Shown piece by piece: positions 994-56,406 of a stretch of DNA of 64,000 nt. The stretch lies in sequence record PQ400055.1; one strand, written 5' to 3'. The position numbers were made by a program, and so were the translations under genes. The notes under the pieces are model-generated. The model saw nothing but the letters and a program-made list of their open reading frames with translations. It had not been told where the DNA came from and did not search any database. The stretch is from a phage. How positions within the stretch are numbered: the first letter of the stretch is position 1; every line of letters begins with the position of its first letter.

Positions 994-1034
994 TTTTGAT
1001 TCTCCTAGAAAGTGTATCTCGTTTCGATGTGTGT

Positions 1035-1063
1035 ATTATGCAATAACACCGGATCGCTGTCAA
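1035..1063 (-). promoter_or_regulatory. sigma70-type early promoter (TTGACA-N17-CATAAT) with conserved leader
   Basis: Reverse strand reads TTGACA, 17-nt spacer, CATAAT, then conserved leader ...cacatcgaaac... and SD; member of a repeated promoter family. Confidence 0.6.
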
Positions 1064-1081
1064 CACTTTCTAAGAAAAATT

Positions 1082-1366
1082 TTAAATTAATCTAATATAG
1101 CCCAGAATTTCAGCACTTTTAGCCAGTCCTAAAACTTCCCATTCAAGGTCGCCGTAGTCATAATTTGCAACCATCAACTGACCATTTTTCATGCAGCATT
1201 CATGAGAGAAAATTTGCCCCGCATAAACTACGATAGTAATAAACTTTCCTGATTCTGGCGGTGTGGAAGACAAAGCGACCATATGACCATTCAGCTTAGT
1301 CACCAGTGATGGAACAATAAAATTCGGGCTTACCTGAATACCGTTAAATTCGTTTGTGTCTTTCAT
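1082..1366 (-). CDS. hypothetical protein (94 aa)
   Basis: ORF in overlapping-stop/start operon of four small genes. Confidence 0.5.
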   Translation of the reverse strand: MKDTNEFNGIQVSPNFIVPSLVTKLNGHMVALSSTPPESGKFITIVVYAGQIFSHECCMKNGQLMVANYDYGDLEWEVLGLAKSAEILGYIRLI

Positions 1367-1713
1367 GCCAGACCTCGCAAAACACTAATAGCATAATCAT
1401 GCTGGTTATTCATAATATCGATTGCATTGTGATAACGAGCTAAACCATCAAGGATAAATTCTTGTTTATCCTGTTTCAGTTTGGTATCACGCGCAGCCAT
1501 AAGAGCATCAAGAACAGGTCCAAAGTGATTATCTAATTCATCTTCGGTTGCAATGTTTCCTATTGCCTCGTCGATCCGTGATTCTAATGCTTGCTTTTCG
1601 TTGATCACTTGCTGGGTATATTCCAACACATCAAGAATATCGCGGGTAACGTCGCCATGATAAGGTATTCCCGCATGAAGATGATCAATTAGTCGTTGAA
1701 TGTCAATGTTCAT
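1363..1713 (-). CDS. hypothetical protein (116 aa)
   Basis: ORF, start overlaps upstream stop (translational coupling). Confidence 0.5.
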   Translation of the reverse strand: MNIDIQRLIDHLHAGIPYHGDVTRDILDVLEYTQQVINEKQALESRIDEAIGNIATEDELDNHFGPVLDALMAARDTKLKQDKQEFILDGLARYHNAIDIMNNQHDYAISVLRGLA

Positions 1714-2048
1714 TTGTAACCCTCCTCTGAAAGCACATCCCAGATCGTTGAGTCAAGGTGCATTAAATTCCACATAATAGAGTCATAACTACCGAAGCCA
1801 GAAGTAAAAATTACATCACACTGGCGATAGGTCTTATGAAAATCGGTGGCTGTCTCTGCATCAATAGGCATATCGTCACCGGAAAGCACCAGACATTTAA
1901 GAATCATAACTCTGTTAGCCGTTGGCGCTTGCTTAGTCTTTTCAGCATATTTTTCGATGATCCGTTTTGCCTTTTCTTCTTTGATACGTCCAGACCAAAT
2001 CCGGTTTCGGTATTGATTCATAATAATTTCAATCACATCATTTTGCAT
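1710..2048 (-). CDS. hypothetical protein (112 aa)
   Basis: ORF in coupled operon. Confidence 0.5.
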   Translation of the reverse strand: MQNDVIEIIMNQYRNRIWSGRIKEEKAKRIIEKYAEKTKQAPTANRVMILKCLVLSGDDMPIDAETATDFHKTYRQCDVIFTSGFGSYDSIMWNLMHLDSTIWDVLSEEGYK

Positions 2049-2247
2049 TCTTCACGGTCTCCATAATTGTTTTGTAAGCCAGTTTAAGATGATCACCGAA
2101 AAACTTTGCGGTGTTACCCTTCGGATCGCGGAGCATGGTTTCTACGATCTCATCGGCAGTAACAATTTCTCCTTTCTTTGCTGCATGTTCTACCATATAC
2201 TTCAAAGTTTCTTCGGAAGCAAGTGCTGCCGCTACTGGATTAATCAT
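2038..2247 (-). CDS. hypothetical protein (69 aa)
   Basis: ORF immediately downstream of early promoter and AGGAGA SD. Confidence 0.5.
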   Translation of the reverse strand: MINPVAAALASEETLKYMVEHAAKKGEIVTADEIVETMLRDPKGNTAKFFGDHLKLAYKTIMETVKNAK

Positions 2248-2277
2248 TTTTGATTCTCCTTTGTTGTCGATGTGTGC

Positions 2278-2306
2278 ATTATGCTATACCCTATTCCGGT
2301 TGTCAA
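2278..2306 (-). promoter_or_regulatory. sigma70-type early promoter (TTGACA-N17-CATAAT)
   Basis: Same conserved promoter/leader family; reverse strand TTGACA ... CATAAT. Confidence 0.6.
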
Positions 2307-2311
2307 CACCT

Positions 2312-2341
2312 AAAAACGAAAAAGCCACCCTTTCGGATGGC
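2312..2341 (-). terminator. intrinsic terminator
   Basis: Hairpin gccaccc-tttc-ggatggc (with G.U) followed on minus strand by UUUUUCGUUUUU. Confidence 0.65.
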
Positions 2342-2575
2342 TTTTGATTATATTTTATTCACGTCCATTTGTATAGTAGTGTTTGAATCGACCTTTGCTA
2401 AACTAGTTAAACATAGTAACCAATTCACCATCCCTTTCCAATGATAACCCTTCCTCGTCTTAGACGGGTCTTCCGATTCGGCAGTAATTGAACACGCGAA
2501 AGTATGAGGAAGCCAAATAGTTGTGTTAATGCTAGTATTCTTTTACTTCTGGTATGCATCCCACGGTGACTAACA

Positions 2576-2975
2576 TTAAGACAGTCGAGTGAGTTTATAA
2601 ATTGTTTTAAAACATAGAGCTTTGATATCGTCTAAAACGCTCTGTAACGAGCTATCAACATCATTATAAATCTCACTAGCCATTTGCGTTAACTCTTGCA
2701 AATAGGCAATTTCGCTAATCTCCTTGCGGACGACCAACGTTGGCTGATAACGACCAGTGATCCCAATATTGGTTTCAGTGAAATCATCAACCAATTCTTG
2801 CATTTCAAGATAGAACTCTTCTAGAGCCTTATGTTTTGCATAAGATCCAGGACCAGTTACTCCAAAATGCGCAGAATGCATATAAGTAACACTCATCAGA
2901 CATTCACCGATAAAGCGGTCAACTTTATTAGCTTTCCCCTCTTCGGACGTCTTTCGAAAATCACTGAATTTCATG
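2576..2975 (-). CDS. hypothetical protein (rI.-1 position)
   Basis: ORF; likely start MKFSDFRK at 2973-2975 with GGAGA SD; the longer 165-aa extension in the ORF track overlaps rI. Confidence 0.5.
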
Positions 2976-3263
2976 TTCTCGATTCTCCATATTATGCAAC
3001 ATAACAAACTGTTGTGCGGCATATTCCCCCATAATAAAACACTGCTTAGAATCCATACATTTACTACGAGCATACATCTTCATAATATGGGCATGAAATT
3101 TCTGGCTGGTTTCAATGGAAGGAGATATTTTGTTTACATATACTATCATTGCACCGTCGAAATAATCAGTAAAATCACCAGTTGGATCATATTGATCAGC
3201 ACTGACACTTCCGACCGCAGTCAAGCATATTGCCGCTGTTAGAGTTTTACGAATAAATGACAT
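2961..3263 (-). CDS. rI: lysis-inhibition regulator RI-like periplasmic protein
   Basis: Signal peptide MSFIRKTLTAAICLTAVGSVSA; DP..F...Y and C....C...G....Q pattern resembles T4 RI as recalled; sits next to tk as in T4. Confidence 0.6.
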   Translation of the reverse strand: MSFIRKTLTAAICLTAVGSVSADQYDPTGDFTDYFDGAMIVYVNKISPSIETSQKFHAHIMKMYARSKCMDSKQCFIMGEYAAQQFVMLHNMENREHEIQ

Positions 3264-3331
3264 AAGTCATTCCCCCAGATTAAAAATATTCAGTTATATT
3301 TATAATCTGGGGCTTTATTTATGATTAACTC

Positions 3332-3928
3332 TTATTTGGTAGTACCGTCAATAAAATGTTTACGGCACACAGAGACATATTTATCCTCTGCACCAACTTC
3401 TATTTGAGCACCATCGCGAATAACATTACCCTCTTTATCTACACGAAGGACCATTGTTGCTTTCTTGCCACAATGACAAATACCCTTCATTTCGACCAGT
3501 TTATCAGCAAATGCCATTAATGCCGCAGATCCTTCAAATAGATTGCCCTGAAAGTCGGTGCGAAGGCCATAGCACAGTACAGGGATATTTGCATCATCGA
3601 CAAGCGCACACAAGCCTAAAACATGCTCTTTAGTCATAAATTGGGCTTCATCTACAAATACAGCATCAGGACGCCATCGATCCGGTCTACGCTTACCTAA
3701 CGATTCACGATAAACCAAATCGAAAAGATCATCCGATTTAGTGAAGGTGATCGCTGGAGCACTTAGACCAATTCGGGAAACAACTTCACTTTCTGAATCT
3801 CGATTATCAATCGCTGGCTTAAGAATTAATACTCGCATATCACGTTCGGTATAGTTATAAGCACTTTGTAACAGAGAAGTTGATTTGCCAGCGTTCATAG
3901 ATGCATAGTAGAAATATAGTTGCGCCAT
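3332..3928 (-). CDS. tk: thymidine kinase
   Basis: P-loop MNAGKST, DEAQF, C-terminal Zn motif CHCGKKA...CRKH; typical TK1-family architecture. Confidence 0.95.
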   Translation of the reverse strand: MAQLYFYYASMNAGKSTSLLQSAYNYTERDMRVLILKPAIDNRDSESEVVSRIGLSAPAITFTKSDDLFDLVYRESLGKRRPDRWRPDAVFVDEAQFMTKEHVLGLCALVDDANIPVLCYGLRTDFQGNLFEGSAALMAFADKLVEMKGICHCGKKATMVLRVDKEGNVIRDGAQIEVGAEDKYVSVCRKHFIDGTTK

Positions 3929-4221
3929 TAATTAATCTCCAAAAATCCAGCAAGACCTAAACCGATATAAGTCCAGATACAAAGGAAAAAGAAGCAAACA
4001 CCCATAGCAAAGATAAATCCTCGTAGTGTCTTTGGATAACCTACCCAATATTCCCGACCATCTTCTAACCGGATCAGCTTATTTCCTTGAGAGTCCATAT
4101 CAATTACAACATGTTTATTTCTGGATTGTAACAGATATTGCTTGACAATCTCAATACCCGCCATAATAACAATAACGAAATTGAAAGTCCACATAACAAG
4201 GTTAATGGTAGTCTCAAGCAT
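3928..4221 (-). CDS. small membrane protein
   Basis: Two hydrophobic segments; start overlaps tk stop. Confidence 0.5.
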   Translation of the reverse strand: MLETTINLVMWTFNFVIVIMAGIEIVKQYLLQSRNKHVVIDMDSQGNKLIRLEDGREYWVGYPKTLRGFIFAMGVCFFFLCIWTYIGLGLAGFLEIN

Positions 4222-4456
4222 TTTCTATCACCTCCACCCAATCAGGCGTTTCCTGAAATACTCCTTCGCCTTCGTGGTGGATGCATCCTTTATTGCTACA
4301 ATACATCCACCAATCCCACATTCCCCACGGTAAACGCTGCATATCGTCGTTACAGCAAGTGAAGACAATAGGCAAACCACATCTAACACATCGGCAGTTT
4401 TCCTTCATGTGAGCGGTATTAGGCTTCTTCATAGATGACTCCAATATAATCGACAT
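4214..4456 (-). CDS. Cys-rich zinc-ribbon-like small protein
   Basis: CRCVRCG...CC...C motifs. Confidence 0.45.
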   Translation of the reverse strand: MSIILESSMKKPNTAHMKENCRCVRCGLPIVFTCCNDDMQRLPWGMWDWWMYCSNKGCIHHEGEGVFQETPDWVEVIENA

Positions 4457-4659
4457 TTACATTTAGGGCAATGCGGTTCTTTAATATAATACCCGTCTGT
4501 CTTTGGAACACTAACAGGAGCGGTTTTTATATTGTATTCCGTGAAACAACGAAAACAAGTTACGTTTTCCACAGACTGACGTTTCACCCAATAACCGGAA
4601 TAGAGGTCATTTTTATTTGTCATATTCCACCACCACAATGTTAATGTCTGGAGTAGCAA
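4429..4659 (-). CDS. Cys-rich zinc-ribbon-like small protein
   Basis: CFRC...CPKCKC motifs. Confidence 0.45.
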   Translation of the reverse strand: MLLQTLTLWWWNMTNKNDLYSGYWVKRQSVENVTCFRCFTEYNIKTAPVSVPKTDGYYIKEPHCPKCKCRLYWSHL

Positions 4660-5068
4660 TATTAATGATTTCTTCTACACATTCCCACTCAAGGCCACCG
4701 ATACCGCAACCGATTTTAGGGATATAGAAAGGCTGTATAGCACCTTCAAAAACATCATTGAGAGTCTCAAATCCTTTCAGGATAGCACCATATTCAGCAT
4801 TTGGACCCGGTCGGAATTGGGTATAGAGATTCACCCCGCACCAGTTATAACCATTAACTTGATGCGTCCAGACACTAAACCCACCCAACTTTTCTACCTT
4901 ACCGCGAGAAGTTTGCTTGTCAATCTCTAACGCTTGCGGGAACTCTTTCGCGATATCCGCAGCAATACCAGCGCCCATAGTATGAAAACAATTACAACCA
5001 TGAATTAAATGACCGTTTCCTTGTTTAAACAGGGCGATGAGATCGCCCTTTACAGTATCAATAATCAT
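4613..5068 (-). CDS. macro-domain (ADP-ribose binding/processing) protein
   Basis: N-terminal GDL...HGCNCFHTMGAGIAADIA and C-terminal IPKIGCGIGGL match the macro-domain signature segments (NAAN..GGGV.GAI and FP.ISTG.YG). Confidence 0.7.
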   Translation of the reverse strand: MIIDTVKGDLIALFKQGNGHLIHGCNCFHTMGAGIAADIAKEFPQALEIDKQTSRGKVEKLGGFSVWTHQVNGYNWCGVNLYTQFRPGPNAEYGAILKGFETLNDVFEGAIQPFYIPKIGCGIGGLEWECVEEIINIATPDINIVVVEYDK

Positions 5069-5083
5069 AATATAAACCTCTCA

Positions 5084-5443
5084 TTAGTCACGGGAAGACA
5101 ACCCAGCCATAAAACGGCTTAACAGTGTGTCGCGATAAGCAAAGCATAATTGCTTATCAGGGGCAGTATCACACAGGTTACGTTTTGTTTTAGCAAAGCT
5201 GGCAATACTCAGATCCCACGCTCGATTTTTTCGTTTTTCGTCTCGACCTTGTTTGTATGCCTCGTCAAGTTCAAGCGCGATAAAATCGCTACACATGTTA
5301 TCATCATCACAGAAGGTTTTAATGATCTTTTTGTTGATCTCAAATCCTTTGTATTCGAACTTTGGATAAGGGCGCTCATTACTAGCAAGCGCACCAGCCG
5401 AGAACATCATAGCAATCATAGCAACTATTGTCAACTTTTTCAT
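5084..5443 (-). CDS. secreted/periplasmic Cys-containing protein
   Basis: Signal peptide MKKLTIVAMIAMMFSAGALA; several Cys. Confidence 0.5.
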   Translation of the reverse strand: MKKLTIVAMIAMMFSAGALASNERPYPKFEYKGFEINKKIIKTFCDDDNMCSDFIALELDEAYKQGRDEKRKNRAWDLSIASFAKTKRNLCDTAPDKQLCFAYRDTLLSRFMAGLSSRD

Positions 5444-5450
5444 ATATTCC

Positions 5451-6041
5451 TCAATAGCGTTTAGTTTTAAGAATGCCTTTACTCTTTAGATGGTTAGCCT
5501 TTTTTAGTACGTCATCAGCATAGCCTAACCCAGCTTTATAGTTCCATCCAGCATTGTAAGAAGCTAGCGCGAGTCGGATATTACCGTTTCTAACATCCAG
5601 CCAGTATGCTAACTCATCCATCGCGTAGAATGCAGAAACCTCGCGATTCATGATAAAGTTGATAGTCTGGCGATCACTCATTTTAACACCGCGCTTTGCA
5701 TTTTTCGCTTTCACCGTTTTAAGGTAATTTTGAAATAATCCATAAGCATGATGATTTTTCTTTGGTGCTAAGTTTGCACCCGCGCTTGATTCTTGCCATG
5801 CGATACCCGCCAGGATGTGACCTAAACCCTTTCCGTTATAGCGAATATTCGGATGGTCCTTTTTCAACTTACCGCTTTTCTCGAATTGTTCGCCGTATTG
5901 ATAGGCGAAATGTAAATTATCTAGTTGGTGTGCTGTAAAGTTGTCTATCGGCGCTTTTTTGATCGGTGCGCTAGTCGATGCGTGTGTAGCACCAACGGCT
6001 AGTGACAGACTCAATACTATCGCTTTTAGAACTTTTAACAT
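5451..6041 (-). CDS. periplasmic lytic transglycosylase (SLT domain)
   Basis: Signal peptide; SLT motifs ES (AWQESS), GLFQ, SYNAG in canonical order. Confidence 0.7.
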   Translation of the reverse strand: MLKVLKAIVLSLSLAVGATHASTSAPIKKAPIDNFTAHQLDNLHFAYQYGEQFEKSGKLKKDHPNIRYNGKGLGHILAGIAWQESSAGANLAPKKNHHAYGLFQNYLKTVKAKNAKRGVKMSDRQTINFIMNREVSAFYAMDELAYWLDVRNGNIRLALASYNAGWNYKAGLGYADDVLKKANHLKSKGILKTKRY

Positions 6042-6126
6042 TAATTTCTCCTGTTTGGCTTAACTTTCTGATTCCATAATATAGCCATATCACCAGAAAG
6101 TCAAGCATTATTTTAACCAATCTCCA

Positions 6127-6549
6127 TTATTGGTCAACTTTCAAAACAACAGCCGACATTTTACCCGCCAGTCGTTTTGGATTCTCTATAATCATTCGGC
6201 AGCATAGACCGTGATATGGCTTACCGTCTTCAATTAGGTCTACTGTCATCCCGATCCACATGTTACCGTCAGTAATTTCTAATCGATTAGGTCGGTCTTC
6301 CATTTTCAGGAAGTCGAAGATCTCCGGCAAACGAGTTTCTACCTTATTGAATAGTTCCATTGTCTTATGTTCATCGATATGACGATCGGTTAGACGGTCG
6401 ATCATATGCGGACTAAAGCGAATGAAAATATACTCACCGTAACCATTATTCAAGCACTTTTCTTTGATTTGTGCGTTAGTCTTACGCATTTCAGTTTCGA
6501 AGAATCTGCGCAGCTTGCTACGGCGAACATGTACGTTAATTGTTTCCAT
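6127..6549 (-). CDS. regB: RegB-like sequence-specific endoribonuclease
   Basis: METINVHVRRSKLRRFFE...RLEITDGNMW...CRMIIENPKRLAGK resembles T4 RegB as recalled; start taken at internal Met 6547-6549. Confidence 0.8.
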   Translation of the reverse strand: METINVHVRRSKLRRFFETEMRKTNAQIKEKCLNNGYGEYIFIRFSPHMIDRLTDRHIDEHKTMELFNKVETRLPEIFDFLKMEDRPNRLEITDGNMWIGMTVDLIEDGKPYHGLCCRMIIENPKRLAGKMSAVVLKVDQ

Positions 6550-6553
6550 TTTA

Positions 6554-6889
6554 TTATCCTTTCTTAAACAAATTGCGAAGCCAGTATACAAACGGGATTT
6601 CTTTAAACTTGAATTTCTCTATAGTTAATTCTTTAGTAGCAAGATGAATACCATAAGCATCATGTGTCACGATATGCCATTTTCTATAGTCCAAATGTGA
6701 ACAACCGTCTGGATCTAGGTTAATAAGAGTTTCTCGCTCACTAGGATTATTTTTCCACAATTTTGTAATAGGATCGCACATAATTCGACCTAGCGTACCA
6801 TGAATAATCTCACAACGGTAAAGTTTTCCAGCAGTGAGATAGGCGCACCCGTCATAGTCGGTATAAACAAACACTTCTTTAACACTCAT
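6554..6889 (-). CDS. hypothetical protein, member of tandem paralog trio (GCSHL..W motif)
   Basis: Start MSVKEV at 6887-6889 with AAGGAG SD; ORF-track N-terminal extension overlaps promoter. Confidence 0.5.
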   Translation of the reverse strand: MSVKEVFVYTDYDGCAYLTAGKLYRCEIIHGTLGRIMCDPITKLWKNNPSERETLINLDPDGCSHLDYRKWHIVTHDAYGIHLATKELTIEKFKFKEIPFVYWLRNLFKKG

Positions 6890-6917
6890 TTTAATACTCC
6901 TTTGTTTCGATGGGGGT

Positions 6918-6946
6918 ATATTACTACCCCCGTTTTGTTGTGTCAA
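6918..6946 (-). promoter_or_regulatory. sigma70-type early promoter (TTGACA-N17-TAATAT)
   Basis: Promoter-family copy between paralog genes. Confidence 0.5.
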
Positions 6947-7207
6947 CTACTTTTTCAAGATTTTTTTAATTGCGTTCCAAAGACCTTTATTCTCAGGTTG
7001 TTTTGGTTCTTCGATTAGTGTCCATGTTCGACCGTCTAAGTGTGCACAATTTTTAAGACAAATAAAAATCTGGTGTCCCTTATCATCACGGATATAACCA
7101 CTATTCGCAAATCTTTCATGTGGTGTATATTCATACAGTGTATTTGGTGTAATATACTTGCGGTTACTATAAGGTGTCATCACATACATCATGGTACTAA
7201 CTCCCAT
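6947..7207 (-). CDS. hypothetical protein, tandem paralog (C.HLDGR.W motif)
   Basis: Shares Y.(Y/F)TP...GYI(R/K)DD.G...C.HL.G..W pattern with neighbour. Confidence 0.5.
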   Translation of the reverse strand: MGVSTMMYVMTPYSNRKYITPNTLYEYTPHERFANSGYIRDDKGHQIFICLKNCAHLDGRTWTLIEEPKQPENKGLWNAIKKILKK

Positions 7208-7383
7208 TTATCACCGCGAAGATGAGAACATCCACCATCAAGAAGTATCGTAATACGATAACCTATATCATCTTTGATGTAACCGATTGTCGGTGGATTT
7301 TCGTCGTCTCGTGTCGGGGTAAAATCATACATCTTTCCGGGCGTAATATCTTGTCCTTTATTGCTATTGGTATAAACTTTCAT
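7189..7383 (-). CDS. hypothetical protein, tandem paralog (GCSHLRGDKW motif)
   Basis: Paralog of 6947-7207. Confidence 0.5.
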   Translation of the reverse strand: MKVYTNSNKGQDITPGKMYDFTPTRDDENPPTIGYIKDDIGYRITILLDGGCSHLRGDKWELVP

Positions 7384-7404
7384 TTTCTTAATCTCCTATA
7401 TTAA

Positions 7405-8103
7405 CTAACCACGGGTATAGTGTTCCAGAACAACTGTCAGATGAATATATTCTAATAGATCTTTCCAAAAGTCAACATCTGGTTCTTCCGGCATACCGTT
7501 TTTCTTTGCCTCTTCACGCGCGAGTTTAACACGCTCGTAGAGATCTTTCAATTCTTCCCGCACATTATCAAAGGTTCTTTCTCCTAACTTACACGCTAAA
7601 ATAGAAGAACGTCGCGCGAGCGGGAATTGTAAATCACCTGTCTGATAGATTTCAAGTAGCTGATAACCAACACGCAGAGCATGAGAAAGATCTTTCCAGT
7701 TACTGAAATACTTTTCAGATTTGGCTACCTGCTTTTTGAGATAGCCAGACAAACCCCACATACCAACATGATAGAATTTATCGCGATGTGTTCGGATGTA
7801 TTCCCATTCTCTGGAGGATTCAACCAACATGTTACTAGGCGCGTGCACCATGTCAATAGCGCCGATATCGCCTTTACATGCCAGGTTGATAAACCGTTTT
7901 AGACTGAACATATTAACGTCAATATCGTCTTTGGTGTTCTTGATACCTTGACCGCTAGTGCTTTGATCATAGTGTTCTTTCATCGATCCTAAGATAATTT
8001 CTTTCGCAGTCGGAACAAAGATACCACGATAATCTTTATCGGAGTTTTCAGTATCAAGGCAGTATAAGTGAGATCCGAAAACCATTTTAACCATTGTATG
8101 CAT
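7405..8103 (-). CDS. pol-beta-superfamily nucleotidyltransferase-fold protein
   Basis: N-terminal GS-x10-DxD motif (GSHLYCLDTENSDKD) followed by helical domain. Confidence 0.55.
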   Translation of the reverse strand: MHTMVKMVFGSHLYCLDTENSDKDYRGIFVPTAKEIILGSMKEHYDQSTSGQGIKNTKDDIDVNMFSLKRFINLACKGDIGAIDMVHAPSNMLVESSREWEYIRTHRDKFYHVGMWGLSGYLKKQVAKSEKYFSNWKDLSHALRVGYQLLEIYQTGDLQFPLARRSSILACKLGERTFDNVREELKDLYERVKLAREEAKKNGMPEEPDVDFWKDLLEYIHLTVVLEHYTRG

Positions 8104-8145
8104 AATTAAACCCTCAGTTGATTAAGAGATTGCATCATATCATCA

Positions 8146-8178
8146 TAAAACGAAAAAGCCAACCCTTTTCGGATTGGC
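8146..8178 (-). terminator. intrinsic terminator
   Basis: Hairpin gccaaccc-ttttc-ggattggc followed by U-run on minus strand. Confidence 0.6.
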
Positions 8179-8189
8179 TTGATGAAAAA

Positions 8190-17362: not shown

Positions 17363-17896
17363 CTAAAAATTTAAACTAGCATAATCTCCAAAATGTTCCT
17401 TTGCTGCTTCGTCATAAGCCTTTGCAGCATCAACTTCGTCAAGAAAGACGCCCAAATGGACCTTTCTACGATTGATTGATATCTGAGCACACCATTTGTT
17501 ATTCTGTGTTCTAATCACTCCTTTATACTTACTCTTACAACCATCAAGTTTTCCGCGATTGAACGCATTTTCCTGAGAAGTGGATTCTCTCAAGTTATCC
17601 GGTGCATTATTTTCTCGGTTTCTATCTACATGGTCGATCATTTTAACTTGCGTACCATGTTCAAGATACCAAACAACCCTATGAACTTTAATGACCAAAG
17701 AATAGCCATCACTGCGCCAAAACTTAAAACATAGATAACCTCGACTATTTTTATAAACTTTAACCGGGTCTCCTGCCTTATACCATCGACCATTCTTTCC
17801 ACTATCTTTCAAATGATACAATATACCATTAACGTGTTTATACTTATCTCTAATTTCTTTTTGTGTAAAATCATCCCACATCTTAAAACCAGACAT
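17363..17896 (-). CDS. HNH endonuclease with AP2 DNA-binding domain (homing-endonuclease-like)
   Basis: HVDRNRENNAPDNLRESTSQENAFN (HNH) and YKGVIRTQNNKWCAQISINRRKVHLGVFLDEVDAAKAYDEAA (AP2-like); inserted between genes 3 and 2. Confidence 0.75.
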   Translation of the reverse strand: MSGFKMWDDFTQKEIRDKYKHVNGILYHLKDSGKNGRWYKAGDPVKVYKNSRGYLCFKFWRSDGYSLVIKVHRVVWYLEHGTQVKMIDHVDRNRENNAPDNLRESTSQENAFNRGKLDGCKSKYKGVIRTQNNKWCAQISINRRKVHLGVFLDEVDAAKAYDEAAKEHFGDYASLNF

Positions 17897-18001
17897 ACAT
17901 TTTCTCCTGATATTATTAATAACAACATCAATCTAACACATCCAGTATATAATGTCAATTGTCGCTTTGCGACGTGCCGTAGGCACTGACTACTTTTTAA
18001 C

Positions 18002-18057
18002 CGAAACAAATTTTTATTATTCTAAAGATCTTTCTTCGTTTTGGTTATGTTTTAACC
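18002..18057 (+). repeat. repeat element copy A (cgaaacaaatttttattattctaaagatctttcttcgttttggttatgttttaacc)
   Basis: Matches copies B and C near gp24; upstream of plus-strand 84-aa ORF. Confidence 0.7.
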
Positions 18058-18113
18058 AATAACTATATTTTTATACAGTAATAAATAAAACTGGTACTAT
18101 ACGAGGACTTCTT

Positions 18114-18368
18114 ATGACAGAAGACATTTTGTTAAAACTCTATGATCGTCTGGATAACGAATTAGCAACATTGCGGGGTGAAGTTCTCTATTTGTCTAAA
18201 TGCAATACAGATCTGCTTAAGCAGATTGCAGAAAGGGATGATCAAATAAAATCCCTTTCAGGTGCATTACGTGATCGCGACAAGGCATTAGAGATTTTAC
18301 AGCGTGTTACCAATAAGGAAGAATTAAAAGACTTCTTACATGGTTATGCTCATGCCATCGATCTATAA
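18114..18368 (+). CDS. small coiled-coil protein (84 aa), opposite strand to neighbours
   Basis: GAGGA SD 8 nt upstream; preceded by repeat element A; followed by bidirectional hairpin. Confidence 0.5.
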   Translation: MTEDILLKLYDRLDNELATLRGEVLYLSKCNTDLLKQIAERDDQIKSLSGALRDRDKALEILQRVTNKEELKDFLHGYAHAIDL

Positions 18369-18370
18369 TA

Positions 18371-18400
18371 AAAAAGCCCGTCAATGACGGGCTTAATTTT
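18371..18400. terminator. bidirectional hairpin terminator between convergent genes
   Basis: gcccgtc-aatg-acgggc flanked by A-run and T-rich run. Confidence 0.55.
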
Positions 18401-19430
18401 AATATGTATCAGCTAATTTAATTATGTTATCAAGTTCCGTGATTGTTAAAGTTTCTGTGTATCCATCTTTCAACATGGATTTATCAACAACGCCACAATG
18501 ATAAGTTCTCTTTATTTCCTTTTCAAGTTCCCACGGAATCCAGCCATCAACACTTTGTTTGACGTAAACAAGTTTGTGAACAAACTTAGATTTCTGCATA
18601 TGTTGTTTCATTCTGGTTTCCGGTAATTCATTGGTTACACCAAACTTTATAAATTTATCATCTAACGTCTGGATATAAAAATATCCCATCTCAGATGGAC
18701 GATAGCCAGAAGAACTACATTTCGGACACCCTTTAGATCTATGGCCATCAAAAGTACAAAATCTAACAGAAAACTCCTGATTGTGTTTATTGCACTTCAT
18801 TTTCAACCATGATTTATCAGATCCTATCCATCCACCATCAAATTCAATAAAACTATAATTTAATTGGTCGCATCTTTCAATTATTCGTTTAATAGCCACA
18901 CTTTCTGGTAACAAGTGTGTTGTCTTTTTACTTTCGTTTACACATTTCTTACAACCACATGTTCCACACTTCGTGAAGTTAAAGAATTGTGTGTTCTTCC
19001 AAATATGGTTATGTTTCTTACATTTTAATATCATTTTAGTAGTGACGTGCTTCCACGCACCAACAAAACCTAAAAATTCATAGTTTAATTCCTCACATCT
19101 TTCTTTTGCTATTTTAATAGCGTCTTCTTCTAGTAAAGACCCGTTACACTGCGGACAGCCTACTATAACCTTTTTACCATAGAAACTATTGCTAGAAACA
19201 TCATAGACAGACCCATGCTTATTGCATTGGATAACAGATCTAGTCAATTTTCCTTTCCATTCTCCAGAAAATCCTAAGAATGTATGGTCGACAAGTTTAC
19301 ACCTTTCAATAACTTTATCCGCAAATTCTCTAGGAGATTTTGTTACTTTGTTTACTCTATATTCTATTTCTTCCGGTTGACGAAGATCATAAACGTGGGG
19401 ATTGCTCCCCACGGAATTAATATTACGCAT
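18399..19430 (-). CDS. protein with three Cys4 zinc-ribbon repeats and C-terminal T5orf172/GIY-YIG-like domain
   Basis: Three ~60-aa repeats F(L/I)GF.G.W...C.KH...GCP.C; C-terminal GYFYIQ...KFIKFGVTNELPETRMKQH; start ATG 19428-19430 overlaps gp2 stop (ATGCGTAA). Confidence 0.6.
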   Translation of the reverse strand: MRNINSVGSNPHVYDLRQPEEIEYRVNKVTKSPREFADKVIERCKLVDHTFLGFSGEWKGKLTRSVIQCNKHGSVYDVSSNSFYGKKVIVGCPQCNGSLLEEDAIKIAKERCEELNYEFLGFVGAWKHVTTKMILKCKKHNHIWKNTQFFNFTKCGTCGCKKCVNESKKTTHLLPESVAIKRIIERCDQLNYSFIEFDGGWIGSDKSWLKMKCNKHNQEFSVRFCTFDGHRSKGCPKCSSSGYRPSEMGYFYIQTLDDKFIKFGVTNELPETRMKQHMQKSKFVHKLVYVKQSVDGWIPWELEKEIKRTYHCGVVDKSMLKDGYTETLTITELDNIIKLADTY

Positions 19431-31516: not shown

Positions 31517-31520
31517 TTAT

Positions 31521-31547
31521 AAGCCGTCCTCGTGGGCGGCTTTTTTG
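31521..31547 (+). terminator. intrinsic terminator after cassette
   Basis: Hairpin gccgtcc-tcgtg-ggcggc followed by TTTTTT. Confidence 0.6.
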
Positions 31548-31556
31548 TATGTATTT

Positions 31557-31564
31557 TATAAATA
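31557..31564 (+). promoter_or_regulatory. T4-type late promoter TATAAATA
   Basis: Exact TATAAATA upstream of gp9. Confidence 0.6.
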
Positions 31565-31591
31565 ATACATCATAACATGAGGAATTAAACA

Positions 31592-54253: not shown

Positions 54254-54841
54254 CTAAATATCTAACCAAGACAAGTCAGATCCGCCCAAGATTTTTTCGA
54301 CGGCGGATCTATTTTCTTGATGATATAAGTTAAAACATGGTATCCCATGTCTACGGGCAACATAAACAGCAATTCTAGTTCCTCCAGAAACGATTCCATT
54401 AACTTCTTTCGCCCAGAATATCACACAATCTACAGGATCATCAAGTGTCTCACCTAAGACTTGAGCAACATTTCTCGAAAACAGATTTTGCATGTATAAC
54501 GGTATAGAACGAGGATTATCATAAACGTGTTCTAATTCATCCATCGCCAGATTTTTTTGTTCTAAGGTTTGCCATGCAATCACATCATGACCGTTATGCT
54601 TGTGGTCATAAAACTTCCAATTTGGAATGAAAATTTTTCTATAATCTGGATCGTAATACTTCATGAAAGCATTGTCCATACCGTAAGCCCCTCCAGAATG
54701 CGCTACAACGCGATTTTCTGACAATACCCTCCCAATGGTACTAGCCATTATCAAAATGTCGCTAGGCGCTTTTCTAGAGCCGATTAAAGCACATCTACGA
54801 AGTGGTTTTACTCCAAATAGATCTTGTAACTGGTCAAACAT
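54254..54841 (-). CDS. standalone DprA/Smf-like (SLOG-type Rossmann) domain protein
   Basis: ALIGSRKAP...VVAHSGGAYGMDNA...SRNVAQVLG...VSGGTRIAVYVARRHGIPCF follows DprA-domain motif order (GSR, SGxAxGxD, RN, SG). Confidence 0.55.
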   Translation of the reverse strand: MFDQLQDLFGVKPLRRCALIGSRKAPSDILIMASTIGRVLSENRVVAHSGGAYGMDNAFMKYYDPDYRKIFIPNWKFYDHKHNGHDVIAWQTLEQKNLAMDELEHVYDNPRSIPLYMQNLFSRNVAQVLGETLDDPVDCVIFWAKEVNGIVSGGTRIAVYVARRHGIPCFNLYHQENRSAVEKILGGSDLSWLDI

Positions 54842-54962
54842 AATATTTCCTCCATAGAAAGCAATATCATACTACAAGTTAATAACAAATACAAGTATCC
54901 GCGTAGCGGAAGCGAGCACAGCGAGCATTAAAAACACTTCCAGTAATTGATTAATAAATGTT

Positions 54963-55015
54963 CGAAACAAATTTTTATTATTCTATAAGATAAGTCTTCG
55001 TTTTGATCATAATTT
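54963..55015 (+). repeat. repeat element copy B (cgaaacaaatttttattattcta...cttcgttttgatcataatttaa)
   Basis: First 23 nt identical to copy A at 18002-18024; tail matches copy C. Confidence 0.7.
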
Positions 55016-55129
55016 AAACATACATGTAAAACTACACAAAAGGATATCGCTTCGCGAACTCCTACGGAGTATAACATTTGTGTTACAATATGTAGTGATT
55101 AATAATTAACCAAAGATACATTTTCTATG

Positions 55130-55171
55130 TTCTAAAGATCTTTCTTCGTTTTGATCATAATTTAATCAAAC
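55130..55171 (+). repeat. repeat element copy C (ttctaaagatctttcttcgttttgatcataatttaa)
   Basis: 24 nt identical to copy A (18021-18044), downstream part identical to copy B. Confidence 0.7.
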
Positions 55172-55221
55172 AGTATTAATATTGTGCACATGTAAACTAA
55201 AATTATGTTAATAACAGATAC

Positions 55222-55246
55222 AAAAAAGCCGCCCAGAAGGACGGCT
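55222..55246 (-). terminator. intrinsic terminator
   Basis: Hairpin gccgtcc-ttct-gggcggc followed by UUUUUU on minus strand. Confidence 0.55.
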
Positions 55247-55254
55247 AATGTTAA

Positions 55255-55692
55255 TTATTTGTTGATAACGATCTGATTTCGGCGAATGGTAACATTACTC
55301 TTAGAGATGATCAGATCATCCGGCACTACGTTAGTTTTGTATGGTTGGAATCGAACAAGCATCTGATTGCGTTTAGACCCTTCCTTAATCTTGATTTCCA
55401 TCTGGATATTGTTGCCTACGTGAGCAACCGCAATTTCACCTTTATTCTCATAGACCCACTTGCTGGTAACGTCTCCAGCAAAAGCCTTAATAACTTGCAA
55501 TGCTTCGTCGTATGCGGTAGAGCTGTGAACTTTCAGAAGGCCAGCCGTAGCAAGACGGGAGCAGGCGATCGCCGGAGATTGCCAAACATCAACATTAATT
55601 TGCTCAATCAGAGTAACACCGCCCTGATCAACTGCTTTGAATGCTTCGAACATTGCCTTTTTCATTGCTACGTGGTTTTTACGGAATTTCAT
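55255..55692 (-). CDS. hypothetical protein (145 aa)
   Basis: ORF. Confidence 0.5.
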   Translation of the reverse strand: MKFRKNHVAMKKAMFEAFKAVDQGGVTLIEQINVDVWQSPAIACSRLATAGLLKVHSSTAYDEALQVIKAFAGDVTSKWVYENKGEIAVAHVGNNIQMEIKIKEGSKRNQMLVRFQPYKTNVVPDDLIISKSNVTIRRNQIVINK

Positions 55693-56364: not shown

Positions 56365-56394
56365 AAAAACAAAAAAGCCACCCCGAAGGATGGC
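56365..56394 (-). terminator. intrinsic terminator after hoc
   Basis: Hairpin gccatcc-ttcg-gggtggc followed by UUUUUUGUUUUU on minus strand. Confidence 0.65.
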
Positions 56395-56406
56395 TGATAG
56401 ATTTCA

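What the first reader, a model, noticed from the sequence alone, without database searches (positions are those of the whole stretch)
54963..55171. Repeated ~50-nt element at two distant loci (gene 3/2 hotspot and the gp24-hoc intergenic region)
Seen in sequence: cgaaacaaatttttattattcta is identical at 18002-18024 and 54963-54985; ttctaaagatctttcttcgttttg is identical at 18021-18044 and 55130-55153; cgttttgatcataatttaa is shared by copies B and C. Each copy can be read as a sigma70-like promoter on the plus strand (TTGATC or TTGGTT, ~17 nt, TATTAA or TATATT). Copy A precedes the 84-aa plus-strand ORF; copies B and C lie in a 413-nt ORF-free region ending in a hairpin. Inference: a shared regulatory element, a mobile-element footprint, or promoters of short noncoding transcripts.
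Basis: seen in the sequence. Interest (0 to 1): 0.45.

Follow-up and report, generated by a model that had tools for sequence, protein, structure and literature searches.

The report
Conserved four-copy intergenic cassette in Krischvirus
The repeat is real: an ~80-base non-coding cassette present four times in every RB49-like coliphage examined and once in an unrelated E. coli prophage family, kept by selection, but it scores poorly as an ordinary promoter and its function is still unproven.

Summary
The window is an RB49/phi1-type T4-like coliphage (Krischvirus). The three repeated stretches are real and longer than reported: each is one or two short GC hairpins followed by a conserved AT-rich core of about 80 nt. 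A fourth copy lies outside the window, between tail-fibre genes 35 and 36. Copies B, C and D point against both neighbouring genes and have no ORF downstream. Only copy A precedes the 84-aa ORF. Across 12 genomes the cores vary less than the flanking spacers or synonymous sites (p about 1e-5). A homologue lies in the ORF-free control region of a temperate E. coli prophage family. The core holds three copies of a 10-nt motif, YCRAAACRA, one of them inverted. Elsewhere in RB49 this motif is found almost only at the start of the leaders of the strong early promoters (PeSLs). The cassette is not a PeSL by profile. It is absent from the published list of predicted RB49 early promoters. It scores 3-9 bits as a sigma-70 promoter, against 13 for PeSLs. 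It has no Rfam match and little conserved RNA structure. Best reading, at modest confidence: a selected DNA recognition module tied to promoters or transcription boundaries, which also acts as a recombination patch. It is a new variant of a known kind.

The parts
17961..17986 (+). Copy A: two adjacent GC hairpins (gtcgc-ttt-gcgac, gtgcc-gta-ggcac), each with a 5-bp stem and a 3-nt loop
   Evidence: Sequence. Folds of -5.0 and -5.6 kcal/mol. 95% identical to the hairpins of copy D in RB49.
17988..18067 (+). Copy A core. Motif copies: CCGAAACAAA 18001-18010 (direct), CTTCGTTTTGG 18034-18044 (inverted), TAACCAATAAC 18053-18063 (direct). Inverted repeat TTGGTTA-N5-TAACCAA at 18041-18059.
   Evidence: nhmmer E = 4.8e-18; alignments; motif census.
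18064..18087 (.). A late-type box TATAAAAA lies on the minus strand at 18079-18072. A late-type box AATAAATA lies on the plus strand at 18080-18087, 27 nt before the ORF start.
   Evidence: Sigma-70 PWM 9.0 bits. Late PWM 9.4 (rank 17 of 128,000 window positions) and 8.3 (rank 39). An A at -13 is accepted in RB49 late promoters (PMC1524935).
18114..18368 (+). 84-aa ORF (RB49 ORF130 homologue, phrog_17832, function unknown). It is the only ORF downstream of any copy.
18374..18394 (.). Bidirectional terminator hairpin that closes the copy-A cassette (17956-18401)
54898..54910 (+). Copy B: GC hairpin tccgc-gta-gcgga
   Evidence: -5.6 kcal/mol.
54949..55038 (+). Copy B core. Motif copies: TCGAAACAAA 54962-54971, CTTCGTTTTGAT 54996-55007 (inverted), TTTAAACATAC 55013-55023 (degenerate).
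   Evidence: nhmmer E = 1.2e-17. Only 4 of 77 columns vary among 12 genomes, and none vary in 54949-55005.
55047..55069 (+). Copy C: two GC hairpins (tcgc-ttc-gcga, ctcc-tac-ggag)
55097..55190 (+). Copy C core. Motif copies: CCAAAGATAC 55110-55119, CTTCGTTTTGAT 55144-55155 (inverted), TTTAATCAAAC 55161-55171.
   Evidence: nhmmer E = 4.3e-19. 6 of 77 columns vary.
55227..55246 (-). Intrinsic terminator of the upstream 145-aa gene (minus strand). It closes the ORF-free gap 54842-55254.
   Evidence: -14.5 kcal/mol. Annotated as a terminator in GEC-3S, G2248, Makalu and TB34.
17364..17955 (-). HNH/AP2 homing-endonuclease cassette, inserted relative to RB49 immediately left of copy A's hairpins
   Evidence: blastn breakpoints. 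Shared only with AV108 and phiS among 59 genomes. PHROG HNH endonuclease.
18402..19410 (-). Second endonuclease gene (377 aa), inserted relative to RB49 immediately right of the copy-A cassette

Best explanation
The repeat is a discrete non-coding cassette. Each copy has one or two short GC hairpins followed by an ~80-nt AT-rich core. The core is built from three copies of a 10-12-nt motif, YCRAAACRA: two direct and one inverted. The inverted copy and the third copy together form the inverted repeat TTGRTNA-N5-TNAYCAA.

Krischvirus genomes carry four copies, all inside late or virion gene blocks: gene 3 / ORF130, two in tandem between the DprA-like gene and ORF165 near hoc, and gene 35 / gene 36.

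I think it most likely works at the DNA level, as a recognition site for a protein: host RNA polymerase with a helper, or another host or phage factor. That site would control transcription at these gene boundaries, acting as the upstream part of a weak, factor-dependent promoter that fires away from the hairpins, and/or as an insulator. It would not act as a self-sufficient sigma-70 promoter or as a structured RNA.

Because it is a conserved patch in otherwise unrelated contexts, it also serves as a homology site where cassettes are exchanged.

Shown: the repeat and its anatomy, the copy number, the orientation, purifying selection, the sharing with a prophage family, the motif shared with PeSL leaders, and the negative tests (not a PeSL, poor sigma-70 score, no Rfam family, little conserved fold).

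Inferred: that a protein binds it, that transcription is what it controls, and the direction and timing of any transcript.
For: - The repeat is not chance.
- There are four copies per genome in RB49, with the same loci in two other complete genomes. The window's loci are present in all 59 Krischvirus records.
- The cores vary at 10 of 154 columns. The adjacent spacers vary at 38 of 156 (p = 1.4e-5) and third codon positions at 58 of 267 (p = 2.8e-5). The central 45-55 nt are invariant, whereas the proposed -10 region varies.
- Orientation relative to the neighbouring genes is not fixed. A and the prophage copy point with the downstream ORF, while B, C and D point against both neighbours. This fits a DNA site or a self-contained promoter better than an mRNA leader.
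- The consensus RNA fold is only -2.4 kcal/mol, with a single covarying pair. There is no Rfam hit near threshold.
- The motif [TC]C[GA]AAAC[GA]A[AG] occurs 30 times in RB49. By my own composition estimate about 7 would be expected (not a tool result). About 19 occurrences sit 7-9 nt after the -10 of PeSL promoters, 7 are in the four cassettes and 4 are elsewhere.
- The prophage homologue lies in a 1.39-kb ORF-free divergent control region with iterons and operator-like repeats, upstream of the first rightward gene. The PWM finds no strong rightward sigma-70 promoter there.
- Recombination role: endonuclease insertions sit exactly at both ends of cassette A. In the prophages the flanks are mosaic on both sides of the core. 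A 387-nt stretch of RB49 ORF262 is 96% identical to a prophage gene, which shows that the two phage groups exchange DNA.
Against: - No binding protein is identified, and I recognised no known E. coli factor motif by eye (no scan was run).
- There are no transcript, footprint or genetic data for any copy.
- A weak sigma-70 reading remains possible. All copies score positive at the same aligned position, and copy A reaches 9.0 bits, with a null probability of about 0.006.
- A late-type (gp55) box follows copy D: 16.8 bits here, and listed as Pl:150021 with score 15.4 in PMC1524935. This hints at real transcription from the cassette, so the core might matter at the RNA level after all.
- The motif shared with PeSL leaders could reflect common descent rather than a shared factor.
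- The conservation test rests on 12 closely related genomes and about 150 columns.
Confidence: 0.4

Rival explanations
1. Autonomous host-RNA-polymerase (sigma-70) promoter cassette of the PeSL style. The hairpins stop upstream transcription. TTGRTN-N16-18-TAnnnn starts plus-strand transcripts. Copy A expresses the 84-aa ORF. B, C and D make short antisense RNAs that end at the adjacent bidirectional terminators.
For: The architecture of hairpins, AT-rich stretch and TTG box resembles the PeSL description (PMC2839356). Copy A scores 9.0 bits, with a null probability of about 0.006 at a fixed position. All copies score above zero at the same aligned place. A hairpin or terminator follows B, C, D and the prophage copy within 3-60 nt. 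The prophage copy precedes the first gene of an operon that lacks any strong sigma-70 promoter.
Against: Scores are 3.4-5.3 bits for B, C and D, against 13 for canonical PeSLs and a mean of 8.6 for the best hit in random 200-nt tiles. C, D and the prophage copy lack T at -7, and B has no aligned -10. In the prophages the spacer varies from 15 to 17 nt. The invariant part lies upstream of the -35, while the -10 region is the variable part. The loci are not among the 51 predicted RB49 early promoters and are not hit by a PeSL profile. The ORF after copy A has its own late-type box.
Confidence: 0.2
2. RNA-level signal read on the strand of the neighbouring genes, that is, the reverse complement of the reader's orientation. 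The core would lie in read-through transcripts between an upstream terminator and the next gene. It would resemble a promoter-less PeSL leader (AUCAAAACGAAGAAAG...) followed by hairpins and a U-rich tract, serving as a processing, attenuation or protein-binding site. Alternatively, RNA from the other strand would pair with PeSL leaders as an antisense regulator.
For: For B, C and D the reverse-complement strand is the sense strand of both neighbours. An upstream terminator precedes each of these copies, and hairpins plus a U-rich tail follow it. Strong early promoters upstream of ORF165 would feed read-through across C and B. The inverted motif is complementary to 11-12 nt of PeSL leaders. Two core subtypes (GATC and GGTT) match two leader subtypes (AUCGAAAC and ACCGAAAC).
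Against: The prophage copy and copy A have the opposite orientation relative to the downstream gene. The consensus fold is weak. Whole-duplex energies against leaders beat shuffled versions of the core, but not random genomic segments. The PeSL profile, which includes 60 nt of leader, does not hit the cassettes. No promoter upstream of the core was found on either strand.
Confidence: 0.15
3. Replication-related site: an origin of the R-loop type or a priming/assembly site. The three loci lie within 1.5-6 kb of the positions that correspond to T4 oriE, oriF and oriG. RB49 lacks the MotA-dependent promoters that T4 origins use.
For: There are a few copies spread over the late half of the genome, at 62.8, 97.6 and 150.0 kb. 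The sequence is AT-rich and bracketed by very stable mini-hairpins, including GCGAAGC. The prophage copy lies about 500 bp from an array of 7-9 iterons, TTTTTGCCCCTGAAA. MotA and middle promoters are absent in RB49 (PMC1524935). The T4 origin positions are from my own knowledge.
Against: The positional match is only approximate. No iterons or DnaA-type boxes occur in the phage copies. The evidence is purely circumstantial.
Confidence: 0.08
4. Functionless remnants: empty versions of the copy-A gene cassette left by duplication, gene conversion or deletion of the ORF, and maintained only by recent spread.
For: Copy D is 95% identical to copy A over 99 nt including the hairpins, and it runs straight from a promoter-like box into a terminator with no ORF. 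B and C are in tandem, 148 nt apart.
Against: The B and C cores are three to four times less variable than the flanking spacers and synonymous sites. All copies are retained in every genome examined. The core is also retained in a distant prophage family, where the flanks are replaced.
Confidence: 0.07

Closest known systems
PeSLs (promoter-early stem-loops) of RB49/phi1 (Arbiol et al. 2010, PMC2839356; Comeau et al. 2014, PMC4122927)
   Same: Same phage genus. Both are composite intergenic cassettes about 100 bp long with stem-loops and an AT-rich stretch. Both are repeated in the genome, associated with indels, and proposed as homology patches for modular exchange. The 10-nt leader motif YCRAAACRA is shared.
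   Different: There is no consensus sigma-70 promoter: 3-9 bits against 13. The cassettes are not hit by a PeSL profile that finds 55 sites in RB49. The hairpins are short (5 bp, -2 to -6 kcal/mol) and not the G/C-tract stems described for PeSLs. There are four copies, located in virion gene blocks rather than the hyperplastic regions. Three of the four face away from any ORF and against their neighbours.
Morons of tailed phages (promoter-gene-terminator units inserted between conserved genes; discussed in PMC2839356)
   Same: Copy A, the 84-aa ORF and a bidirectional terminator form a 446-nt unit. It sits in the opposite orientation between late genes 3 and 2.
   Different: The unit is present in all 59 Krischvirus genomes, so it is not a variable accessory. 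Copies B, C and D carry no gene.
T4 middle promoters (MotA box replacing the -35) and other activator-dependent promoters (PMC1524935)
   Same: A conserved box upstream of, or in place of, a poor -35, combined with a weak -10. This is the layout the best explanation implies.
   Different: RB49 has no MotA or middle-promoter consensus. The box sequence and spacing differ, and no activator is known.
T4-type late promoters ((T/A)ATAAATA, gp55-dependent; PMC1524935)
   Same: Late-type boxes flank copies A and D on both sides. The box after copy D is in the published prediction list, as Pl:150021.
   Different: Late promoters need no upstream element. Copy C has no convincing box (2.8 bits). The prophage has no known gp55.
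P4 CI RNA and P1 c4 antisense immunity RNAs (an antisense segment flanked by sense target copies; from my own knowledge)
   Same: The sense-antisense-sense arrangement of one short motif, which also occurs in the leaders of many early transcripts.
   Different: There is no evidence that the cassette is transcribed or processed, no stable predicted RNA structure, and the orientation is inconsistent.

Membership tests
PeSL (promoter-early stem-loop) | Sequence matching the E. coli sigma-70 consensus (-35 and -10) that acts as a strong early promoter | tested here: not met
   PWM scores: A 9.0, B 5.2, C 5.3, D 3.4 bits, against 13.0-13.2 for six canonical PeSLs in the window. The loci are absent from the 51 predicted RB49 early promoters.
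PeSL (promoter-early stem-loop) | Sequence similarity to the PeSL repeat family | tested here: not met
   An HMM built from 19 canonical RB49 PeSLs finds 55 sites at E <= 10, and none overlaps copies A-D. Only a 10-12-nt leader motif is shared.
PeSL (promoter-early stem-loop) | A stable stem-loop within or next to the promoter that can terminate or attenuate transcription | tested here: inconclusive
   Hairpins are present at every copy, but they are short (4-5 bp, -2.4 to -5.6 kcal/mol) compared with -14.5 for a true terminator nearby. They have no clear U-run.
PeSL (promoter-early stem-loop) | [quoted passage not shown] | tested here: met
   Sequence of all copies.
PeSL (promoter-early stem-loop) | Shine-Dalgarno sequence and start codon of a downstream ORF at the 3' end; located mostly in hyperplastic regions | tested here: not met
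   Only copy A has a downstream ORF, 47 nt after the core. B, C and D face the 3' ends of convergent genes. All copies lie in virion or late gene blocks.
PeSL (promoter-early stem-loop) | Association with insertions or deletions between close relatives | tested here: met
   Met for copy A only: endonuclease insertions at 17364-17955 and 18402-19410 abut the cassette. The B/C gap is collinear in all 59 genomes.
T4-type early promoter (Nolan et al. 2006 model) | Match to the RB49 early-promoter HMM | tested here: not met
   No listed site falls at 62.7-62.9, 97.4-97.9 or 149.9-150.2 kb (PMC1524935 supplementary file 3).
T4-type late promoter | (T/A)ATAAATA box at -13 to -6 | tested here: inconclusive
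   43-nt late PWM with copy D left out of training: D 16.8, B 9.6, A 6.5, C 2.8 bits. Pl:150021 is in the published list. The box lies next to the conserved core, not inside it.
Known structured RNA family (Rfam 15) | Covariance-model match at or near the gathering score | tested here: not met
   The best hits in 54700-55400 score 14-21 bits against gathering scores of 38-111. All of them lie over the terminator.
Moron (promoter-ORF-terminator insertion) | A single ORF with its own promoter and terminator, inserted between conserved genes and absent from some relatives | tested here: inconclusive
   Cassette A has the ORF, the terminator and the opposite orientation. However, it is present in all 59 genomes, its promoter is unproven, and the other three copies have no ORF.

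The most novel reading that the evidence does not exclude
The cassettes and the roughly 20 early-promoter leaders share one recognition motif because a single, still unknown factor or RNA links them. In one version, cassette-derived RNA or a motif-binding protein acts on the 5' leaders of early PeSL transcripts to time early-gene shut-off. In another, the triple-motif cassettes act as fixed entry or anchoring sites (an origin, or an enhancer-like site) in the late gene blocks. On this view the module is old enough and portable enough to be shared with a temperate E. coli prophage's control region.
Probability: 0.15. Interest if true: 0.7.

Novelty: new variant of a known kind. Interest (0 to 1): 0.4.

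Why it matters
RB49-type phages are used in therapy cocktails and are the model in which mobile regulatory cassettes (PeSLs) were defined. This work adds a second conserved cassette family. It sits in the supposedly stable virion modules, next to the tail-fibre host-range genes, the hoc cluster and a homing-endonuclease hotspot. It is also shared with a temperate prophage family that demonstrably exchanges DNA with these lytic phages.

If a protein binds the core, or it is transcribed, it would give a handle on two open questions. One is how a T4-like phage without middle-mode transcription organises transcription boundaries. The other is how lytic and temperate coliphages trade regulatory DNA.

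If the cassette proves inert, the result is still a useful annotation: a recombination patch and a marker of module boundaries.

Tried and rejected
- **Chance repeat:** rejected.
- **Coding:** rejected. The only ORFs over the copies are 32-49-aa frames that run through the hairpins, and they are not shared between copies.
- **Rfam families:** nothing near threshold.
- **Conserved RNA structure:** the RNAalifold consensus is -2.4 kcal/mol with one covarying pair. Single-sequence z-scores are driven mainly by the GC hairpins.
- **Canonical PeSL or diverged PeSL:** rejected by profile, by PWM and by the published promoter list.
- **A PeSL-like promoter upstream of the core, with the hairpins in the spacer:** scores are -0.6 to 6.4 bits, at chance level.
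- **Antisense pairing with leaders measured by duplex energy:** not distinguishable from random genomic segments. Only the motif match stands.
- **A DNA-binding protein shared by phage and prophage:** tblastn of all prophage ORFs against RB49 found only the ORF262 homologue, a tail-fibre segment and an endonuclease. No regulator was found.
- **Known host-factor sites (IHF, Fis, Fur, DnaA, LacI-family, sigma-28, sigma-S):** checked by eye against consensus sequences recalled from memory. I saw no convincing match. This was not a formal scan.
- **Wider distribution:** GTDB species genomes gave only chance hits. Metagenomes gave only Krischvirus and the same prophage family.
- **Literature:** searches for transcriptome data on Krischvirus or RB49 and for T4 anti-late RNA found nothing usable.

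Full report
**Identity of the window.** The region 54800-55300 matches 59 phage records at 95-99.6% identity, all of them Krischvirus (RB49, phi1, JSE, GEC-3S and others). So does the copy-A region. In RB49 coordinates:
- Copy A lies between gene 3 (minus strand) and ORF130 (plus strand).
- Copies B and C lie between the DprA-like ORF164 and ORF165, both on the minus strand, downstream of gene 24 and upstream of hoc.

**Check of the observation.** Every quoted identity is present at the stated coordinates, and none is expected by chance.

The repeat is longer than reported. An HMM of the three copies aligns 80-94 nt per copy at E of 1e-17 to 1e-19.

Each copy is preceded by one or two GC hairpins with 5-bp stems and 3-nt loops. 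B and C are 148 nt apart in a 413-nt ORF-free gap. That gap ends at the terminator of the upstream 145-aa gene.

**More copies.** A search of the whole RB49 genome finds a fourth copy, D, at 150072-149994 on the minus strand (E = 5.8e-15). It lies between tail-fibre genes 35 and 36.
- Two other complete Krischvirus genomes in IMG/VR have the same four loci.
- Copy D is 95% identical to copy A over 99 nt, hairpins included.
- B, C and D point against both neighbouring genes and have no ORF downstream. Only A precedes an ORF (84 aa, phrog_17832, function unknown).

**Selection.** I aligned twelve Krischvirus sequences of the B/C gap. Variable columns were:

| Region | Variable columns |
|---|---|
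| Core B | 4 of 77 |
| Core C | 6 of 77 |
| Spacer between B and C | 13 of 73 |
| Spacer between C and the terminator | 25 of 83 |
| Third codon positions, DprA-like gene | 20 of 133 |
| Third codon positions, ORF165 | 38 of 134 |

Fisher tests give p = 1.4e-5 (cores against spacers) and p = 2.8e-5 (cores against third positions).

The invariant part is the central 45-55 nt. The region of the proposed -10 is the variable part. The cores are therefore maintained by selection and are not dead scars.

**A homologue outside the genus.** Exact-pattern scans of IMG/VR and of metagenomes, followed by the HMM, recover two groups only. One is Krischvirus. The other is about 40 contigs of a single prophage type, with matches over the full core (75-80 nt) at E of about 1e-10.
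- The prophage sequence is chromosomal in 57 of 5,426 complete E. coli genomes.
- In strain KSC64 the core lies in a 1.39-kb ORF-free control region between divergent operons. That region also holds 7-9 iterons (TTTTTGCCCCTGAAA) and CTAGAT-type operator-like repeats. It has two very strong leftward sigma-70 promoters. A perfect 15-nt inverted repeat, TATAAATAATAGTGA, sits at each end, and each copy is followed by a hairpin and a U-run.
- The core is again preceded by two GC hairpins, here of the C(UUCG)G type. It is followed by a third hairpin whose stem is kept while its loop varies.
- Flanks on both sides of the core are mosaic among the prophages.
- No strong rightward sigma-70 promoter exists in that region.
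- The two phage groups exchange DNA. 387 nt of RB49 ORF262 are 96% identical to a prophage gene, and the tail-fibre genes share a segment.
- GTDB species representatives gave only chance hits.

**Is it a promoter?** I scored all copies with a sigma-70 weight matrix. Its frequencies are approximate and come from memory of published compilations.
- Six canonical early promoters in the window (the TTGACA-N17-CATAAT family at 1014-15265, minus strand) score 13.0-13.2 bits.
- The best hit in a random 200-nt tile averages 8.6 bits.
The chance of reaching 9, 5 or 3 bits at a fixed position is 0.006, 0.07 and 0.16 respectively.
- The simple consensus scan did not flag any copy.
- C, D and the prophage copy lack T at -7. 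In the prophages the spacer varies from 15 to 17 nt.
- None of the loci is among the 51 early promoters predicted for RB49 by Nolan et al. 2006 (PMC1524935, supplementary file 3).

That paper's list of late promoters does contain two sites at locus D. One is the gene 36 promoter, Pl:150089. The other is Pl:150021 (score 15.4), on the opposite strand. It is the box CTGTATAAAAAAT immediately after copy D, read in the cassette's own orientation.

I built a late-promoter matrix from the other 16 published sites. At nearly the same aligned register it gives D 16.8, B 9.6 and C 2.8 bits; A scores 6.5 bits at a site 16 nt further downstream. In the window, copy A is followed by back-to-back late-type boxes:
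- Minus strand, TATAAAAA at 18079-18072: rank 17 of 128,000 positions.
- Plus strand, AATAAATA at 18080-18087: rank 39, and 27 nt before the ORF start.

RB49 late promoters tolerate A at -13. So the 84-aa ORF probably has its own late promoter, and the core is not needed to explain its expression.

Overall, an autonomous sigma-70 promoter is credible only for copy A. Some transcription out of the cassettes, possibly late, cannot be excluded.

**Is it an RNA?** No Rfam family comes near threshold. The consensus fold of seven diverse copies is -2.4 kcal/mol. Its only recurrent helix is TTGRT...AYCAA, which shows G-C, A-U and G-U variants. Single-sequence folds are dominated by the GC hairpins.

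**Relation to PeSLs.** PeSLs are the known repeated promoter/stem-loop cassettes of RB49 and phi1 (PMC2839356).
- A profile of 19 canonical RB49 PeSLs finds 55 sites, in line with the about 51 reported. None lies in copies A-D.
- PeSL transcripts nevertheless begin with a recurrent leader...ATCGAAACGAA... or ...ACCGAAACGAA..., 7-9 nt after the -10.
- The motif [TC]C[GA]AAAC[GA]A[AG] occurs 30 times in RB49. From base composition I estimate about 7 by chance; this is my own estimate, not a tool result. About 19 occurrences are in PeSL leaders, 7 are in the four cassettes and 4 are elsewhere.
- Each cassette carries the motif three times: direct, inverted (this copy is the invariant CTTCGTTTTGRT) and direct again. 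The last two copies form the small inverted repeat.
- The two cassette subtypes (GATC in B and C, GGTT in A and D) correspond to the two leader subtypes.
- This may reflect common descent, a shared binding factor, or antisense pairing. A duplex-energy test did not separate the cassettes from random genomic segments.

**Synteny.** Compared with RB49, this phage has a 592-nt HNH/AP2 endonuclease cassette inserted 5 nt left of copy A's hairpins. It also has a 1,009-nt endonuclease gene inserted just right of the ORF's terminator. The 446-nt unit 17956-18401 therefore behaves as a discrete module. The B/C gap is collinear in all 59 genomes.

**Conclusion.** The thing is a selected, four-copy, non-coding cassette. 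It is related in style, and by one short motif, to PeSLs, but it is not a member of that family.

The data fit best with a DNA-level recognition module that governs transcription at gene boundaries in the late gene blocks and doubles as a recombination patch (confidence 0.4). The rivals are:
- an autonomous weak promoter (0.2);
- an RNA-level signal or antisense regulator (0.15);
- a replication-related site (0.08);
- functionless remnants (0.07).

No transcript or binding data exist for any copy, so the mechanism remains inferred.

Noticed in passing
window 1014-1074, 2257-2317, 6897-6957, 12254-12314, 13216-13276, 15205-15265 (minus strand): Six copies of the canonical PeSL early promoter (TTGACA-N17-CATAAT with a stem-loop over the -10). 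Each is followed at +7 to +9 by the leader motif ATCGAAACGA / ACCGAAACGA. Genome-wide in RB49, this motif is almost confined to PeSL leaders and the four cassettes.
   Followed up: partly
window 17364-17955 and 18402-19410: Two homing-endonuclease genes (HNH/AP2, 177 aa; and a 377-aa phrog_681 endonuclease) are inserted relative to RB49, exactly at the two ends of the copy-A/ORF130 cassette. Among 59 Krischvirus records, the HNH insertion is shared only with phages AV108 and phiS.
   Followed up: partly
window 18065-18087; RB49 149983-149996: The 13-14-nt segment CTGTATAAAAA(A)T, a late-promoter-like box, is inverted between copy A and copy D relative to the core. In copy A it sits back to back with a second late-type box, AATAAATA, which points at the 84-aa ORF.
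   Followed up: partly
L045 11013-12401 (E. coli KSC64 prophage in ycdX): A 1.39-kb ORF-free divergent control region. It holds 7-9 iterons (TTTTTGCCCCTGAAA) spaced mostly about 21 or 42 bp apart, ACTAGATGATWCTAGAT operator-like repeats, and two very strong leftward promoters (14-16 bits). A perfect 15-nt inverted repeat, TATAAATAATAGTGA, lies at each end just before the first gene of each operon, and each copy is followed by a hairpin plus U-run. The prophage proteins next to it have no PHROG match.
   Followed up: partly
RB49 158303-158689 (L005) versus L015, L020, L025, L028, L036, L039, L066: The first ~128 codons of RB49 ORF262 are 95-96% identical at the DNA level to a gene of the same prophage family, while the rest of the protein is only about 58% identical. 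This indicates recent recombination between a lytic T4-like phage and a temperate phage.
   Followed up: partly
RB49 151726-152268 (L005) versus L045 from 23219: The prophage tail-fibre protein shares a 57%-identical segment with the N-terminal part of the RB49 distal long-tail-fibre subunit, about 1.7 kb downstream of copy D.
   Followed up: no
window 13290-13322, 31519-31566, 55219-55251, 56368-56400: The terminator hairpins form a sequence family of their own (AAAAAAGCCRCCC...GGRYGGCT), found in both orientations.
   Followed up: no
L055 about 6349-6385 (metagenome prophage contig): One prophage variant has lost 18 nt of the core (ttcttatattctaaagat) between the internal direct repeats AAAGAT|TCTT and AAAGAT|ACTT. 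This shows that the core contains a short tandem duplication prone to slippage.
   Followed up: no
RB49 118394-118468 (L004): A weak fifth match to the cassette HMM (E = 0.043) lies inside ORF194 in the hyperplastic region. It is probably chance.
   Followed up: no
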